Positions 3,822 to 60,006 of a stretch of 64,000 nt of DNA are shown here, one piece after another (the first letter of the stretch is position 1; every line of letters starts with the position of its first letter). A model generated the notes under the pieces. It searched no databases. It was not told where the DNA came from and saw only the letters and a list, made by a program, of their open reading frames with translations. The stretch lies in the NCBI RefSeq assembly GCF_003790525.1, contig NZ_CP033635.1. One strand, given 5' to 3'. The translations under genes and the position numbers were made by a program. This stretch comes from Escherichia coli (GTDB lineage: Bacteria; Pseudomonadota; Gammaproteobacteria; Enterobacterales; Enterobacteriaceae).

Positions 3822-4592
3822 GTGCCTGGTTTGAAGATTACGCTTTTGCAGCAACCACTGGTGTGGATGGATGGCCCTGCCAACCTGCGTCATTTTGATC
3901 GTCAACTGGAAGGTATTACCGGACGCGATGTGATCGTTCTACCGGAGATGTTTACCAGCGGCTTTGCCATGGAAGCGGCAGCTGCGTCGCTAGCACAAGA
4001 TGACGTAGTGAACTGGATGACAGCCAAAGCGCAGCAGTGCAATGCGCTGATTGCAGGCAGTGTTGCATTACAAACGGAGTCTGGTTCGGTTAACCGCTTT
4101 TTGCTGGTTGAGCCGGGCGGCACGGTACATTTTTATGATAAGCGTCATCTGTTCCGAATGGCAGATGAGCATCTGCATTATAAAGCGGGCAATGCGCGAG
4201 TAATTGTGGAATGGCGCGGCTGGCGTATTTTGCCGCTGGTGTGCTACGACTTACGTTTTCCTGTGTGGTCGCGCAATCTCAACGATTATGACCTCGCCCT
4301 GTACGTCGCCAACTGGCCTGCTCCGCGCTCTCTGCACTGGCAGGCATTGCTGACAGCCCGCGCGATTGAGAATCAGGCGTATGTGGCGGGATGCAATCGC
4401 GTCGGCAGCGATGGCAACGGCTGCCATTATCGCGGTGACAGCAGAGTGATTAATCCACAGGGCGAGATTATCGCCACCGCCGACGCGCATCAGGCAACGC
4501 GCATTGATGCGGAGCTGTCGATGGTGGCGTTGCGGGAATATAGAGAAAAGTTTCCGGCATGGCGGGATGCGGATGAATTCACATTTCGTTAG
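3822..4592 (+). CDS. yafV: Omega-amidase / C-N hydrolase (nitrilase superfamily) YafV, 256 aa
   Basis: ORF 3813..4592; likely GTG start at 3822 placed 9 nt after AAGGAG (3807-3812); product (M)PGLKITLLQQPLVWMDG... Confidence 0.85.
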   Translation: MPGLKITLLQQPLVWMDGPANLRHFDRQLEGITGRDVIVLPEMFTSGFAMEAAAASLAQDDVVNWMTAKAQQCNALIAGSVALQTESGSVNRFLLVEPGGTVHFYDKRHLFRMADEHLHYKAGNARVIVEWRGWRILPLVCYDLRFPVWSRNLNDYDLALYVANWPAPRSLHWQALLTARAIENQAYVAGCNRVGSDGNGCHYRGDSRVINPQGEIIATADAHQATRIDAELSMVALREYREKFPAWRDADEFTFR

Positions 4593-4690: not shown

Positions 4691-4767
4691 TGGCGGAACG
4701 GACGGGACTCGAACCCGCGACCCCCTGCGTGACAGGCAGGTATTCTAACCGACTGAACTACCGCTCC
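4691..4767 (-). tRNA. aspV: tRNA-Asp (GUC)
   Basis: Reverse complement reads GGAGCGGTAGTTCAGTCGGTTAGAATACCTGCCTGTCACGCAGGGGGTCGCGGGTTCGAGTCCCGTCCGTTCCGCCA, including CCA end. Confidence 0.97.
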
Positions 4768-12911: not shown

Positions 12912-12988
12912 TGGCGGAACGGACGGGACTCGAACCCGCGACCCCCTGCGTGACAGGCAGGTATTCTAACCGACTGAACTACCGCTCC
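12912..12988 (-). tRNA. aspU: tRNA-Asp (GUC), distal tRNA of rrnH operon
   Basis: Same tRNA-Asp sequence as at 4691-4767, located immediately downstream of the 5S rRNA. Confidence 0.97.
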
Positions 12989-13040: not shown

Positions 13041-13160
13041 ATGCCTGGCAGTTCCCTACTCTCGCATGGGGAGACCCCACACTACCATCGGCGCTACGGC
13101 GTTTCACTTCTGAGTTCGGCATGGGGTCAGGTGGGACCACCGCGCTAAGGCCGCCAGGCA
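13041..13160 (-). rRNA. rrfH: 5S ribosomal RNA
   Basis: Reverse complement matches E. coli 5S rRNA (TGCCTGGCGGCC...GGGAACTGCCAGGCAT), 120 nt. Confidence 0.95.
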
Positions 13161-13252
13161 AATTCTGTTTCATCAGACCGCTTCTGCGTTCTGATTTAAT
13201 CTGTATCAGGCTGAAAATCTTCTCTCTTCCGCCAAAACATCTTCGGCGTTGT

Positions 13253-16156
<2,904 letters not shown>

Positions 16157-16330
16157 TCACAACCCGAAGATGTTTCACTTCAGAGTTGCGAAAATTTGAG
16201 AGACTCACGAACAACTTTCATTGTTCAGTGTTTCAATTTTCAGCTTGATCCAGATTTTTAAAGAGCAAAACTTCGCAGTGAACCTTTGCAGGTACACTCT
16301 GAAGTATTTTTTATTTAATCACTACAGAGA

Positions 16331-16406
16331 TGGTGGAGCTATGCGGGATCGAACCGCAGACCTCCTGCGTGCAAAGCAGGCGCTCTCCCAGCTGAGCTAT
16401 AGCCCC
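16331..16406 (-). tRNA. alaV: tRNA-Ala (UGC), 16S-23S spacer
   Basis: Reverse complement GGGGCTATAGCTCAGCTGGGAGAGCGCCTGCTTTGCACGCAGGAGGTCTGCGGTTCGATCCCGCATAGCTCCACCA. Confidence 0.97.
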
Positions 16407-16448
16407 ATAACATGTAGTTAAAACCTCTTCAAATTTGCGATGCAAATT

Positions 16449-16525
<77 letters not shown>

Positions 16526-16593
16526 GTAGAGGTTTTACTGCTCATTTTCATCAGACAATCTGTGTGAGCACTGCAAAGCACAGTTCTTTAAGG

Positions 16594-18135
<1,542 letters not shown>

Positions 18136-24886: not shown

Positions 24887-24900
24887 ATGGATTGTATAAA

Positions 24901-25725
24901 ATGGATAAACCAAAGGCGTACTGCCGCCTGCTTCTCCCCTGCTTTCTTTTACTTTCGGCCTGTACCGTTGATATCAGCCAGCCAGACTCATCAGCCACAG
25001 CGGTAAATGCCGAGGCGAAAACATGGGCTGTTAAATTCCAGCATCAAAGCTCTTTCACCGAACAATCAATAAAAGAAATAACAGAACCAGATCTCAAACC
25101 CGGCGATTTGCTTTTCTCCTCAAGCCTTGGGGTAACCTCATTTGGTATCCGCGTATTCAGCACTTCCTCTGTGAGTCACGTTGCAATCTATTTGGGAGAT
25201 AATAACGTTGCCGAAGCGACAGGCGCTGGCGTCCAGATTGTTTCACTTAAAAAAGCCATGAAGCATAGTGATAAGCTTTTCGTCTTACGAGTCCCGGACC
25301 TTACCCCGCAACAAGCCACAGAAATCACCGCGTTCGCCAATAAAATCAAAGATAGCGGTTATAACTATCGCGGCATTGTCGAATTTATTCCATTTATGGT
25401 GACTCGCCAGATGTGCTCACTGAATCCGTTCTCCGAGGATTTTCGCCAACAGTGCGTCAGCAGCCTGGCGAAAGCGCAGTTAAGTAACGTTGGCGAAGGA
25501 GACAAAAAGTCGTGGTTTTGTTCGGAATTTGTCACTGATGCATTTGCCAAATCCGGGCATCCGCTTACGCTGGCGCAATCGGGCTGGATTAGCCCTGCCG
25601 ATCTGATGCATATGCGTAGTGGTGATGTCTCTGCATTTAAACCAGAAACGCAGTTACAGTATATTGGGCACCTGAAGCCAGGGATTTATATTAAAGCAAG
25701 TCGCTTTGTTGGACTGACTCAGTGA
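24901..25725 (+). CDS. yaeF: Putative lipoprotein YaeF, permuted papain-fold (C92/YiiX-like) peptidase, 274 aa
   Basis: ORF 24892..25725; start at MDKPKAYCRLLLPCFLLLSACTVD (lipobox LSAC); His motif SHVAIYLG precedes Cys motif WFCSEFV. Confidence 0.82.
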   Translation: MDKPKAYCRLLLPCFLLLSACTVDISQPDSSATAVNAEAKTWAVKFQHQSSFTEQSIKEITEPDLKPGDLLFSSSLGVTSFGIRVFSTSSVSHVAIYLGDNNVAEATGAGVQIVSLKKAMKHSDKLFVLRVPDLTPQQATEITAFANKIKDSGYNYRGIVEFIPFMVTRQMCSLNPFSEDFRQQCVSSLAKAQLSNVGEGDKKSWFCSEFVTDAFAKSGHPLTLAQSGWISPADLMHMRSGDVSAFKPETQLQYIGHLKPGIYIKASRFVGLTQ

Positions 25726-25750
25726 TAAAAGCCAGCCTCGTGCGCAAAAT

Positions 25751-25848
25751 GCCGGATGCGGCGTGAACGCCTTATTCGGCCTACAAAATCGTGCTAATTC
25801 AAAATATTGCATTGTATGCTTTAGGCCTGATAAGCGCAGCGCATGAGG
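25751..25848. repeat. REP/BIME element pair between convergent yaeF and nlpE
   Basis: gccggatgcggcgtgaacgccttattcggcctac (canonical REP) and aggcctgataagcgcagcgcatgagg in inverted orientation. Confidence 0.8.
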
Positions 25849-25880
25849 CAATATTTCATTTGTTTCTGTCTCAAGACGGG

Positions 25881-26591
25881 TTACAGCCCCAAACTACTGC
25901 AATCATGGTTCGGGTAAAATTTACCCGCCGTATCGGGCGCTAATACTTTAGTCGGCGCACCGGTATCGGGATTAGCCTCCAGCGTAAAGTGACCTTCAAC
26001 TGACAGTAACACTGGTTTTTCACTGTTACCCCGCGCAGCCAGGTAGCCACGCTCCAGCTCTGCGTTATTCGCCACAATAAAACGTTTTCCGGTCGCGCAA
26101 TCAGTAAAGGTCGCCGCATCAGCCATATAGAAATACATGCCACGCAGGGTCATCGGCGTCATTGGCATGCTCGATTTTGCCGGTTCCAGCGTGTAGTTGA
26201 ACTGCGATTCAATGGGATTACCTTCACGATCGAGCATCTCCAGTGCATCCCCTTTCGCTCGATAATATGACTTTTCACCTTTGCTGTCGGTTAATACCAG
26301 CTTGTCGGCAGTTCGCGCCCATGTACCGTAGGAGGCAAAGGATGAAGGCTCTTCACGAGCGCCAAGATAGCGCTCGCTCATCACCCAGGTTCCATCTTTT
26401 TCGAGGAACAGAGAGGTTTCGATCCCTTCGCAATCGGCACACGGCAGCACGCCGCGCCAACTTTGCGGCATCGGTTTCAGTTCGGCAGCCTGCGCCGGAG
26501 AAAGCGTGTCGACTTCGGCCCGATTGTTACATCCCATCAGAGTAAAGAGGCTGATTACAGCCATCGCTGTCACTATCGCTTTTCTCACCAT
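25881..26591 (-). CDS. nlpE: Outer-membrane lipoprotein NlpE (CutF), Cpx pathway activator, 236 aa
   Basis: Lipobox LMGCNN; CXXC motif LPCADCEG. Confidence 0.92.
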   Translation of the reverse strand: MVRKAIVTAMAVISLFTLMGCNNRAEVDTLSPAQAAELKPMPQSWRGVLPCADCEGIETSLFLEKDGTWVMSERYLGAREEPSSFASYGTWARTADKLVLTDSKGEKSYYRAKGDALEMLDREGNPIESQFNYTLEPAKSSMPMTPMTLRGMYFYMADAATFTDCATGKRFIVANNAELERGYLAARGNSEKPVLLSVEGHFTLEANPDTGAPTKVLAPDTAGKFYPNHDCSSLGL

Positions 26592-27734: not shown

Positions 27735-27935
27735 GTGGAAAAATATTGTGAGTTAATACGCAAGCGGTACGCGGAAATCGCCAGCGGAGACTTAGGATAC
27801 GTTCCGGACGCGCTGGGCTGCGTTTTGAAAGTGCTGAATGAAATGGCTGCCGACGACGCCCTTTCTGAGGCTGTCAGGGAAAAAGCAGCATACGCTGCGG
27901 CAAACTTACTGGTGAGCGATTATGTCAATGAATGA
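27735..27935 (+). CDS. yaeP: Small conserved protein YaeP (UPF0253), 66 aa
   Basis: ORF 27717..27935; GTG start preceded by AGGAGG; product (M)[25 protein letters not shown]... Confidence 0.75.
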
Positions 27936-28182
27936 TACGTATCAACCAATCAATTGTGATGATTACGATAATCTTGAGCTCGCCTGCCAGCATCATTTAA
28001 TGCTGACACTTGAGCTGAAAGATGGCGAAAAATTGCAGGCGAAGGCCAGCGATTTAGTCTCCCGCAAAAATGTGGAGTATCTGGTCGTCGAGGCCGCTGG
28101 TACAACCCGCGAGCTGCGTCTGGATAAAATTACCAGCTTTAGCCACCCGGAAATCGGTACGGTGGTGGTGAGCGAGTCCTGA
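27928..28182 (+). CDS. rof: Rho-binding antiterminator Rof (YaeO), 84 aa
   Basis: ORF 27922..28182; trimmed to [23 protein letters not shown]...; 8-nt overlap with yaeP. Confidence 0.85.
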
Positions 28183-28188
28183 TTGACT

Positions 28189-28225
28189 TTCGCCGGATGC
28201 GACGTTTGATGCGTCTTATCCGGCT
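28189..28225. repeat. REP element between convergent rof and tilS
   Basis: tcgccggatgcgacgtttgatgcgtcttatccggc palindromic REP-type sequence. Confidence 0.7.
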
Positions 28226-28230
28226 TTCAC

Positions 28231-29529
28231 TTAACTAAGCGTTTTCTGCCAGACAAAACTGACGCCATTCTCACCTTCAGCCACACCTTCTTGCGTCACA
28301 AATACCCCTGCCGCCGCAATCAACGTTTCGCCATAAAACAGCAGTGGCGTGGTGTCACGTAGCCACGGCGGCACACCCAGCTCTTGCCAGATTTTCTTCA
28401 GCTTACGTCCGCCATTGCGCCCGACAATATGCAGCAATCCAGGCGCTTTGAAACGCACGCTGACCGCTTCGTCTGCACGCGGAGGGCGAATATCGCCTCC
28501 CGCAGTAAGCTGTACACTTCCCAGTCCCGCCGGTAATTCCAGCGGTTGTAGCCACGTCTGCCACGGCACAATGGTTTCGCTTTGCCCGGCAACGGATTTA
28601 ATCCACCACAGTTGCGATTGATAGCGGCGGATTTCAAACGCCCCCAAACGTAAACAGGGGGAAGCATCTTCTCGCGCCAGCGCCACTTCCTGCCAGATCC
28701 TCACCAACGCGTCGCGGGAAGGCATCGGTGCATTCTGCCCTGCCAGCCAGCGGCGGATAATCGCCGCGCGACGGGCATCACTCATCGCCAGCATTGGCGC
28801 AATCTGCAGCGTCCCCTGCGGCGTTTGACAGTGTGCTAAATCATCTGCCAGCAGTTCATCCAGCAGGCTCTCTTGCTCAGCACAAAGTGCAGCGCTGCGG
28901 GCCGTTGCTTCGGCAAAATGCGGCCAACGCTGCTGCAATAACGGCACTACGCGCAGGCGCAGAAAGTTACGATCGTATGAGTCGTCCTGATTACTTTCGT
29001 CTTCAATCCAGCGTAAACCATGCGCCAATGCCCACTGCTCCAGTTCCCCCCGCGTGCGGGCGAGCAACGGGCGGATAAGCTGTGTTCCGGCAAACTCCGA
29101 AACTTCCCCCATAGCCGAAAGCCCGGCAGGGCCGCTACCGCGTTTTAGCGCCAGCAGAAAGGTTTCACATTGGTCGTCGAGATGTTGCGCGGTGACCAGC
29201 ACTTCACCGGGTAACAGGGTACGAGCAAATGCCTGATAACGCACCTGCCGCGCCTGGGCCTCAATGCCCAGTCCTTCTTGCGCAAGTTGCACGCGCTCGA
29301 CCACCAGCGGCACCTGCCACTGTTGGCAGATGTTCTCGCAATGCCTAACCCAGGCATCGGCATTGGCACTTAAACCGTGATGCACATGGATAGCGCGTAG
29401 AGTGACGCCCGGATTTTCCGTCCGCCACTGCACCAACTGATGCAGCAGAACGGTGGAGTCAAGCCCGCCGCTAAAGGCCACCAGAATCTGGCGTGAGGAG
29501 AGAAGTTGTCTATTGAGCGTGAGTGTCAT
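28231..29529 (-). CDS. tilS: tRNA(Ile)-lysidine synthetase, 432 aa
   Basis: PP-loop motif SGGLDS near N-terminus ([15 protein letters not shown]). Confidence 0.92.
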
Positions 29530-58538: not shown

Positions 58539-59963
58539 TTACTGCATTAACAGGTAGATGGTGCTGTCGCCGCGCTGAATGTTCAGTGCCAGCACAGACG
58601 GTTTGCTGTCGAGAACTTTACGCAGTTCAGCGATGTTTTTCACTGCCTGCTGGTTCGCGCCAATAATCACATCACCTTTCTTCAGGCCGATCTGCGCAGC
58701 CGGAGTGCCCGTTTTCACGTTGTTCACCACCACGCCCTGATCTTTGCCTTTGTTACTCATCTCAGCGCCTTCAATGCCGTTGAAGATGGTGCTGGAATCA
58801 ACCTGATTCTGGCTGCTCTGCTGAAGTTCCAGGTTCACGTTAACCTGCTTCCCGTCGCGCAGTAAGCCCAGGGTCAGTTTGCTACCTACCGGCATAGTGC
58901 CCACCTGAGCACGCAGTGCGGCAAAGCTGCTGATTGGCTTACCGTTCAGTGAGGTGATCACATCACCCGCTTTAATGCCCGCTTTCGCGGCGGAAGAATT
59001 CGGCAGAACCTGGCTTACGAAAGCACCGCGCTGGGCGTCAACTTTCATCGCTTTCGCCAGATCGGAGTTCAGCTCAGTGCCCATAATACCCAACTCACCG
59101 CGTTTCACCTGGCCGTATTCCACCATCTGCGAGGTCAGGTTTTTCACCATGTTGCTCGGGATAGCAAAACCGATACCGATGTTGCCGCCGTCCGGTGCGA
59201 GGATCGCGGTGTTGATACCGATCAGTTCACCGTTCAGGTTAACCAGCGCACCACCGGAGTTACCACGGTTAATCGCTGCATCGGTCTGGATGAAGTTTTC
59301 GTAGTTTTCGGCATTCAGGCCGCTACGCCCCAGCGCAGAGACAATCCCGGAAGTTACCGTCTCGCCCAGACCAAACGGGTTACCAATCGCTACGGTGTAA
59401 TCACCCACGCGCAGTGCATCAGAATCCGCCATCTTAATTGCGGTCAGGTTTTTCGGGTTCTGGATCTGGATCAGCGCGATATCAGAGCGCGGATCTTTGC
59501 CAACCATCTTCGCGTCGAACTTACGGCCATCGCTCAGTTGGACTTTAATCACCGTCGCGTTATCAACAACGTGGTTGTTGGTGACGACATAGCCTTTATC
59601 GGCATCAATGATGACGCCGGAACCCAGCGCCATGAATTTCTGTTGCTGGCCGCCACCATTACCGCCCTGGCCACCCTGGCAGAACGGAGAACTCTGGAAC
59701 GGAGAACCTTCCTGGCAGAACGGAGAATCATCACCGAAGAACTGCTGGAAATTACGCGGCATACGCGGCGTATTAACGGTTGTGCTACCTTCTACGTTAA
59801 TGCTGACCACTGAAGGCATCACCTTTTCGAGCATCGGTGCAAGGCTTGGCATCTGCTGGGCTGTCGTTGCTGAAGAAGTCTCAGCCGCCGTTGCAGAGAG
59901 CGGAGATAACGCCAAACCTAAACTCAGAGCCAGTGCACTCAGTGCTAATGTGGTTTTTTTCAT
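58539..59963 (-). CDS. degP: Periplasmic serine endoprotease/chaperone DegP (HtrA), 474 aa
   Basis: ORF translation MKKTTLALSALALSLGLALSPLSATAAETSS...; catalytic GNSGGAL, two PDZ domains. Confidence 0.96.
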   Translation of the reverse strand: MKKTTLALSALALSLGLALSPLSATAAETSSATTAQQMPSLAPMLEKVMPSVVSINVEGSTTVNTPRMPRNFQQFFGDDSPFCQEGSPFQSSPFCQGGQGGNGGGQQQKFMALGSGVIIDADKGYVVTNNHVVDNATVIKVQLSDGRKFDAKMVGKDPRSDIALIQIQNPKNLTAIKMADSDALRVGDYTVAIGNPFGLGETVTSGIVSALGRSGLNAENYENFIQTDAAINRGNSGGALVNLNGELIGINTAILAPDGGNIGIGFAIPSNMVKNLTSQMVEYGQVKRGELGIMGTELNSDLAKAMKVDAQRGAFVSQVLPNSSAAKAGIKAGDVITSLNGKPISSFAALRAQVGTMPVGSKLTLGLLRDGKQVNVNLELQQSSQNQVDSSTIFNGIEGAEMSNKGKDQGVVVNNVKTGTPAAQIGLKKGDVIIGANQQAVKNIAELRKVLDSKPSVLALNIQRGDSTIYLLMQ

Positions 59964-60006
59964 GTATTTCAGTCTCGATTAACAGATAACGCAAAATTGC
60001 TGTGTT

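What the first reader, a model, noticed from the sequence alone, without database searches (positions are those of the whole stretch)
25751..25848. REP/BIME elements at convergent gene junctions
Canonical REP palindromes occupy the yaeF/nlpE junction (25751-25848) and the rof/tilS junction (28189-28225). These are recognition sites for REP-associated functions and likely act as mRNA 3' stabilisers or terminators here.
Basis: seen in the sequence. Interest (0 to 1): 0.15.

Follow-up and report, generated by a model that had tools for sequence, protein, structure and literature searches.

The report
Known REP/BIME repeats between convergent genes
The two spots are ordinary, already catalogued E. 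coli REP repeats (a two-palindrome BIME-1 between yaeF and nlpE, a single REP between rof and tilS) that sit where converging transcripts end; the finding is correct but not new.

Summary
The window is E. coli chromosome. A Y-type REP lies at 25751-25784 (+) and a Z1-type REP at 25821-25849 (-). The 36-nt linker between them is conserved and has an IHF-like box, so this is a BIME-1 ("RIP"). It sits between convergent yaeF and nlpE. A single 33-nt REP at 28192-28224 fills the 48-nt gap between convergent rof and tilS. No shuffled window gave any match.

The orthologous K-12 elements are annotated REP16 and REP15. A 2026 preprint supplement lists both as overlapping bidirectional terminators. 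Neither has a U-tract, so they are not classical intrinsic terminators. In other strains these same REPs carry REP-specific IS621 and IS1397 insertions.

- The yaeF/nlpE junction is polymorphic across 5,426 genomes. About 37% have the window type and 35% the K-12 type (Z2-Y, no Z1). Roughly 8-12% have no REP and carry a bidirectional terminator-type hairpin instead.
- The rof/tilS REP is essentially fixed (5,417 genomes). It lacks the GTAG tail. It lies 9 and 6 nt from the two stop codons, inside the range reported to slow translation termination.
- The window's copies carry small departures from consensus.

Verdict: already known, low interest.

The parts
25751..25784 (+). Y-type REP, with its CTAC tail at 25781-25784 facing the linker. 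Orthologue of the K-12 REP16 Y copy. C->T at 25776 turns one stem pair into G-U in the yaeF-sense RNA and into an A-C mismatch in the nlpE-sense RNA.
   Evidence: 1 mismatch to the Y consensus, 0 of 100 shuffles match. 33/35 identical to the published Y consensus. Hairpin -18.4 kcal/mol, z -3.97 on +; -14.0, z -2.1 on -.
25785..25820 (.). 36-nt 'L' linker of a BIME-1, with an IHF-like box ATTCAAAATATTG at 25797-25809.
   Evidence: The linker aligns with those of unrelated dispersed copies at yghA/exbD and yaaA/yaaX, with an invariant core ATTCAA.AT.TTGCA. 1 mismatch to WATCAANNNNTTR. BIME-1 L linkers are described as conserved and frequently carrying an IHF site (PMC3333891).
25821..25849 (-). 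Z1-type REP, inverted relative to the Y copy, tail towards the linker. Degenerate: GTAG->TTAG (25821) and stem C->G (25845).
   Evidence: 3 mismatches to the Z1 consensus, 0 of 100 shuffles match. 27/30 identical. Its own hairpin is weak (-6.8 and -12 kcal/mol, z +0.7 and -0.9). The canonical form is seen in strain SCEC020001.
25735..25745 (+). Flank GCCTCGTGCGC, which in the predicted yaeF-sense RNA pairs with 25839-25849 and encloses the whole BIME in one long hairpin. Homologous to the short linker next to the Y REP in the K-12 allele.
   Evidence: Whole-BIME fold -52.9 kcal/mol, z -4.55 on +; -39.8, z -2.1 on -. Alignment A2.
28192..28224 (+). Single REP (K-12 REP15), Z2/Y hybrid without a GTAG/CTAC tail. 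Fills the rof-tilS gap, 9 nt after the rof stop (28180-28182) and 6 nt after the tilS stop (28231-28233, - strand).
   Evidence: Exact match to the degenerate REP pattern, 0 of 100 shuffles match. Hairpin -22.0 (z -5.1) on + and -19.0 (z -4.2) on -. Identical in K-12. Present in 5,417 of 5,426 genomes. Median 17 related places per genome. Listed as REP15, a bidirectional terminator.

Best explanation
These are ordinary members of the E. coli REP repeat family, sitting in the shared 3' regions of two convergent gene pairs. Junction 1 is a BIME-1 (Y REP, L linker with an IHF-type box, inverted Z1 REP). Junction 2 is a lone REP. When transcribed from either strand each forms a G+C-rich hairpin that defines and protects the steady-state 3' end of the incoming mRNA. 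It does this by blocking 3'-5' exonucleases and by contributing to termination that is factor-assisted (partly Rho-dependent) rather than intrinsic. This limits antisense read-through into the facing gene. At the DNA level they are also landing sites for REP-specific mobile elements, and the L linker probably binds IHF. Shown here: their identity as REP/BIME, the hairpin potential on both strands, family membership, the polymorphism, and the IS targeting. Taken from the literature for the K-12 orthologues: coincidence with mapped bidirectional terminators. Inferred only: the exonuclease block, any Rho involvement, IHF binding, and any effect on translation termination of rof and tilS.
For: Matches to REP consensus with no chance matches. 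Stable hairpins on both strands for the Y REP and the rof/tilS REP, z -2.1 to -5.1. The whole composite, linker included, recurs at unrelated convergent junctions, yghA/exbD and yaaA/yaaX. BIME-1 is defined as z1 + y with a conserved L linker that often carries an IHF site (PMC3333891). The K-12 orthologues REP15 and REP16 coincide with overlapping bidirectional terminators in log and stationary phase (Table S16 of bioRxiv 10.64898/2026.03.23.713779). The same preprint reports REPs in about 30% of convergent intergenic regions and higher expression of such gene pairs. REP hairpins resist exonucleases and mark the 3' ends of Rho-dependent transcripts (PMC6061677). IS1397 sits in the loop of the Y REP (L006) and of the rof/tilS REP (L013). 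IS621 sits at GTAG|GCCTGAT of the Z1 REP (L007, L009, L012), which is the natural IS621 target ATCAGGCCTAC (PMC11208160). The REP-free allele has a hairpin with the shape of a bidirectional intrinsic terminator at the same place, AAAGCCGGAG-AATG-CTCCGGCTTT at -27.6 kcal/mol. That shows what job the position requires.
Against: No run of T follows any of the hairpins, so none is called terminator-like. The window's Z1 copy barely folds on its own, and its GTAG is mutated. The window's junction-1 allele is not the K-12 allele, which has Z2-Y and no Z1, so the K-12 3'-end data transfer only to the shared Y REP. The preprint itself reports wide, context-dependent variation and no uniform effect of REPs on mRNA half-life. 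No expression, IHF-binding or 3'-end data exist for this strain.
Confidence: 0.85

Rival explanations
1. The REPs are selfish or neutral repeat DNA, relics of REP/BIME spread by the TnpA_REP (RAYT) transposase. They are tolerated at convergent junctions because nothing there is disrupted. They have no selected role in the expression of the neighbouring genes, and any 3' ends seen at them are incidental.
For: Junction 1 is highly polymorphic. It has a window-type allele (2,031 genomes), a K-12-type allele (1,918), a Z2-L-Z1 allele lacking Y, a REP-free allele and IS-bearing alleles. The window's copies carry stem-weakening and GTAG mutations, which suggests decay. REPs are substrates of TnpA_REP.
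Against: The rof/tilS REP is retained in 5,417 of 5,426 genomes, and the 41-nt query is at least 99% identical in 4,121 of 5,450 matching records. Both K-12 orthologues coincide with mapped bidirectional terminators. The REP-free allele supplies another strong hairpin rather than nothing. Selfish origin and co-opted function are not mutually exclusive.
Confidence: 0.3
2. The main role of the rof/tilS REP is translational. It starts 9 nt after the rof stop and 6 nt after the tilS stop. The hairpin would therefore hinder ribosomes reaching the stop codon, causing stalling, mRNA cleavage and tmRNA rescue, and so lowering Rof and TilS output.
For: The distances are read directly from the sequence. 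REPs fewer than 16 nt from a stop codon are reported to down-regulate translation by ribosome stalling (Liang, Rudd and Deutscher 2015, as summarised in PMC12306157).
Against: Not tested for these genes. The primary paper could not be read, and neither gene appears in the held RepRanger supplements. tilS is essential, so strong down-regulation seems unlikely. The yaeF/nlpE REPs lie 25 and 31 nt from their stops, outside the reported range.
Confidence: 0.2
3. The junction-1 element acts mainly at the DNA level, as an IHF-binding or topological site rather than through RNA.
For: The L linker is conserved among dispersed copies and has an IHF-type box. The literature assigns IHF binding to BIME-1 L linkers.
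Against: The box has one mismatch to a loose consensus that is common by chance, and binding was not tested. The K-12 allele has a diverged linker and no Z1, and about 10% of genomes have no BIME at all. The recent preprint found no measurable chromosome-compaction role for its model REP and no long-range REP-REP contacts.
Confidence: 0.15

Closest known systems
E. coli K-12 REP16 (nlpE/yaeF intergenic BIME)
   Same: Same locus, with an orthologous Y-type REP differing at 2 positions and the same start of the L linker. Listed as a bidirectional terminator between convergent genes.
   Different: K-12 has an extra inverted Z2 REP and a short linker on the yaeF side, and has lost the Z1 REP (199-nt spacer against 155 nt here). 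The window allele is a plain Y-L-Z1 BIME-1, shared by about 2,031 of 5,426 genomes.
E. coli K-12 REP15 (rof/tilS intergenic REP)
   Same: Sequence identical across the REP and its flanks. Same position relative to both stop codons. Listed as a bidirectional terminator in log and stationary phase.
   Different: None found.
BIME-1 / RIP elements (Y-L-Z1 with an IHF site), e.g. the copy between yaaA and yaaX
   Same: Same parts in the same order and orientation. The linker core is invariant across copies. Also at a convergent junction.
   Different: The window copy has GTAG->TTAG and a broken stem pair in Z1, and a G-U in the Y stem. In the yaaA/yaaX copy the second REP is of the longer Z2 kind.
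Bidirectional intrinsic terminators at convergent genes
   Same: Same position and the same presumed job. The REP-free allele of this junction has a hairpin of this shape.
   Different: The REPs lack the flanking A and U tracts and are not called by the terminator scan.

Membership tests
REP (E. coli repetitive extragenic palindrome) | A 30-40 nt imperfect palindrome matching the y, z1 or z2 consensus | tested here: met
   Y 33/35, Z1 27/30, and the rof/tilS REP 29/37 (Z2) or 28/35 (Y). No matches in shuffles. Definition from PMC3333891.
REP (E. coli repetitive extragenic palindrome) | Conserved GTAG tetranucleotide at the foot of the palindrome | tested here: inconclusive
   Met for the Y REP (CTAC at 25781-25784). 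Not met for the window's Z1 copy (TTAG at 25821-25824, GTAG in other strains). Not met for the rof/tilS REP (GGCTTTCAC). The latter is nevertheless annotated REP15 in K-12.
REP (E. coli repetitive extragenic palindrome) | Extragenic, and dispersed in many copies per genome | tested here: met
   Both lie between stop codons. Median of 6 places per genome for the BIME query, 36 for the K-12 allele and 17 for the single REP.
BIME-1 | One y and one z1 REP in inverse orientation, single copy, separated by the long conserved L linker | tested here: met
   Definition.
BIME-1 | L linker binds IHF | not testable with these tools
   Only a motif: ATTCAAAATATTG, 1 mismatch to WATCAANNNNTTR, conserved in position among copies.
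Intrinsic (Rho-independent) terminator | G+C-rich hairpin followed directly by a U-tract | tested here: not met
   No terminator-like site in either junction. The tails are TTTCAC and GAAAGT at junction 2.
Substrate of TnpA_REP (RAYT) | REP with a 5' GTAG and a stem mismatch, bound and cleaved as single-stranded DNA | not testable with these tools
   By sequence only the Y REP qualifies. No RAYT gene was looked for in the window.
Rfam naRNA4 / ES036 sRNA families | Score at or above the family gathering threshold | tested here: not met
   35.3 against 59.5 bits, and 25.4 against 37.6 bits. No family reaches threshold in either junction.

The most novel reading that the evidence does not exclude
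The structural alleles at yaeF/nlpE (BIME-1, Z2-Y BIME, or a plain terminator-type hairpin) may act as lineage-specific settings of NlpE/YaeF expression. The fixed, GTAG-less rof/tilS REP lies within 9 and 6 nt of both stop codons. It may act as a two-way brake on translation termination that ties the output of the Rho inhibitor Rof and of TilS to REP/tmRNA-dependent control.
Probability: 0.12. Interest if true: 0.3.

Novelty: already known. Interest (0 to 1): 0.08.

Why it matters
It matters little on its own. REPs and BIMEs have been catalogued in E. coli for decades, and these two are already named in K-12 (REP15, REP16). The modest value lies in two side results. First, one locus shows, across 5,426 genomes, most of the known behaviours of REPs: gain and loss of individual REPs, replacement by a terminator-type hairpin, and targeting by IS621 and IS1397. 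It could therefore serve as a natural allelic series for testing what a REP does to convergent genes. Second, the two junctions contrast sharply: the GTAG-bearing BIME is polymorphic and the GTAG-less REP is fixed.

Tried and rejected
- I looked for REP annotation in the K-12 RefSeq record. The local copy holds no repeat_region features, not even at the yaaX/yaaA REP, so it gave no names. The names came from a preprint supplement instead.
- The intrinsic-terminator scan of both junctions was negative, so the 'classical terminator' reading was dropped.
- An Rfam search gave only sub-threshold matches to REP-derived sRNA families.
- I tried to find the ancestral state of junction 1 by scanning genome contigs for the REP-free allele's hairpin. 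No hit was next to yaeF or nlpE, and the one Escherichia albertii hit was an unrelated terminator. The ancestral state is unresolved.
- Liang, Rudd and Deutscher 2015 is not held. The held RepRanger supplements do not mention these genes.
- A GCCTGATGCG match at 4486 lies in what appears from the sequence context to be coding DNA and lacks a REP palindrome, so I did not count it as a REP.
- Mechanical ORFs overlap the BIME (65 aa on -, 50 aa on +). I dismissed them because no gene is annotated there in the identical strain.

Full report
**What is there**

The window is E. coli chromosome. The stretch around the finding reads proS, yaeF (+, 24892-25725), nlpE (-, 25881-26591), arfB, yaeQ, yaeP, rof (+, 27922-28182), tilS (-, 28231-29529), yaeR, ldcC. 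Gene names come from a strain that is 100% identical over the junction.

**Junction 1 (155-nt spacer)**

- The Y-type REP consensus matches 25751-25784 (+) with one mismatch.
- The Z1-type consensus matches 25821-25849 (-) with three mismatches.
- Neither pattern matched in any of 100 shuffles of the window.
- Against the consensus strings quoted in PMC11208160, the copies are 33/35 (Y) and 27/30 (Z1) identical.
- The two REPs are inverted, with their CTAC/GTAG tails facing a 36-nt linker.
- That linker is not random. It aligns with the linkers of dispersed copies at yghA/exbD and yaaA/yaaX, with an invariant core ATTCAA.AT.TTGCA. It contains ATTCAAAATATTG, one mismatch from the IHF consensus.
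- This is the definition of a BIME-1: y + z1, single copy, long conserved L linker that often carries an IHF site (PMC3333891).

**Junction 2 (48-nt spacer)**

- A 33-nt REP at 28192-28224 has 13-bp arms and a 7-nt loop.
- It is a Z2/Y hybrid without the GTAG/CTAC tail.
- It still belongs to a dispersed family, with a median of 17 related places per genome.
- It starts 9 nt after the rof stop and ends 6 nt before the tilS stop.

**Structure**

- The Y REP folds stably on both strands, at -18.4 and -14.0 kcal/mol.
- The rof/tilS REP also folds stably on both strands, at -22.0 and -19.0 kcal/mol, z -4.2 to -5.1.
- The window's Z1 copy barely folds alone (z about 0), because a C->G change at 25845 breaks a stem pair.
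- If the whole BIME is transcribed, it is predicted to fold into one long inter-REP hairpin (-52.9 kcal/mol, z -4.55 in the yaeF sense). The same is true of the other alleles.
- No hairpin is followed by a T-run, and the terminator scan finds nothing in either junction.
- Rfam gives only sub-threshold matches, to the REP-derived families naRNA4 and ES036.

The rof/tilS junction is essentially fixed. It is covered in 5,417 of 5,426 complete E. coli genomes and is identical in K-12.

The yaeF/nlpE junction is polymorphic.

- The window-type allele (Y-L-Z1) is covered in 2,031 genomes.
- The K-12 allele is covered in 1,918 genomes. It has an extra inverted Z2 REP and a short linker on the yaeF side, and has lost Z1.
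- Strain 116333 has Z2-L-Z1 without Y.
- Strain MS 198-1 and others have no REP at all. From ranks in an evenly spaced list, this is roughly 435-650 genomes. They have a 29-nt spacer holding AAAGCCGGAG-AATG-CTCCGGCTTT, a -27.6 kcal/mol hairpin with A and U flanks, which is the shape of a bidirectional intrinsic terminator.
- Some strains carry insertion sequences in these same REPs. IS1397 sits in the loop of the Y REP (strain SSGw2). It also sits in the loop of the rof/tilS REP (NCTC10444, with a TGA duplication). IS621 sits at GTAG|GCCTGAT of the Z1 REP, which is the reported natural target ATCAGGCCTAC.
- Both IS elements are documented REP-specific inserters (PMC1525189).
- In the window, the IS621 target reads ATCAGGCCTAA.

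**How it probably works**

Published data cover the K-12 orthologues.

- Table S16 of Harris et al. 2026 (bioRxiv 10.64898/2026.03.23.713779) lists 213630-213673 as REP15 (rof/tilS) and 216053-216093 as REP16 (the Y REP at nlpE/yaeF). Both are given as overlapping bidirectional terminators between convergent genes, detected in log and stationary phase.
- The same preprint reports REPs in 207 of 704 convergent intergenic regions and higher expression of such gene pairs. For its model REP it reports a dual role as a partly Rho-dependent terminator and an mRNA stabiliser.
- Dar and Sorek 2018 describe REP hairpins as exonuclease-resistant ends of Rho-dependent transcripts.

I therefore take the REPs to be hairpins that define and protect 3' ends in both directions, working without a U-tract. 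They are secondarily DNA targets for mobile elements, and for the L linker probably for IHF. Identity, folding, polymorphism and IS targeting are shown here. The 3'-end role is transferred from K-12: fully for REP15 and partly for REP16. Exonuclease blocking, Rho involvement and IHF binding are inferred.

One further possibility applies only to junction 2. REPs fewer than 16 nt from a stop codon are reported to stall terminating ribosomes (Liang et al. 2015, as summarised). This REP is within that range of both stops. This was not tested.

**Rivals**

- A purely selfish or neutral repeat fits the polymorphism and the decay of the window's copies. It does not fit the fixation of REP15 or the substitution of another hairpin in the REP-free allele.
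- A mainly translational role, or a mainly DNA-level (IHF) role, cannot be excluded, but neither has direct support.

**Novelty and verdict**

The finding is already known. Its low interest score was appropriate.

**Dead ends**

- The local K-12 record has no repeat annotation.
- A scan of genome contigs for the REP-free hairpin, meant to identify the ancestral state, hit generic terminators only.
- The Liang 2015 paper is not held.

Noticed in passing
L010 676-706 (strain MS 198-1), orthologous to window 25726-25880: About 8-12% of complete E. coli genomes have no REP at the yaeF/nlpE junction. They carry instead a 29-nt spacer with a perfect hairpin flanked by A and U runs, the shape of a bidirectional intrinsic terminator. 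Which state is ancestral was not resolved.
   Followed up: partly
window 25735-25745 and 25839-25849: In the yaeF-sense fold a flank upstream of the Y REP pairs with the head of the Z1 REP and encloses the whole BIME. The G at 25845 that breaks the Z1 REP's own stem pairs with C25739 in this long helix. The canonical allele has a C-C mismatch there. This may be coincidence.
   Followed up: partly
L005, L007, L011, L012 (yaeF): yaeF is annotated as a frameshifted pseudogene in several strains, but is intact in the strain identical to the window.
   Followed up: no
window 25785-25828 (+) and 25711-25781 (-): There are sub-threshold Rfam matches of the L linker to ES036/CssrF (25.4 against 37.6 bits) and of the Y REP region to naRNA4 (35.3 against 59.5 bits). 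This suggests those sRNA families are built on REP/BIME sequence.
   Followed up: no
window 25751-25849 versus 28192-28224: The BIME containing a GTAG-tailed REP is structurally polymorphic among strains, while the GTAG-less REP is fixed in 5,417 of 5,426 genomes. This is consistent with GTAG being required by the REP transposase, but it rests on only two loci.
   Followed up: partly
window 13043-18135 (-), 4694-4767, 12915-12988, 16334-16525, 51749-51835, 59958-60003: A ribosomal RNA operon with spacer and distal tRNAs, another tRNA, the t44 RNA and the HtrA 5' UTR thermometer all reach Rfam gathering scores. These are ordinary features of this chromosome region.
   Followed up: no
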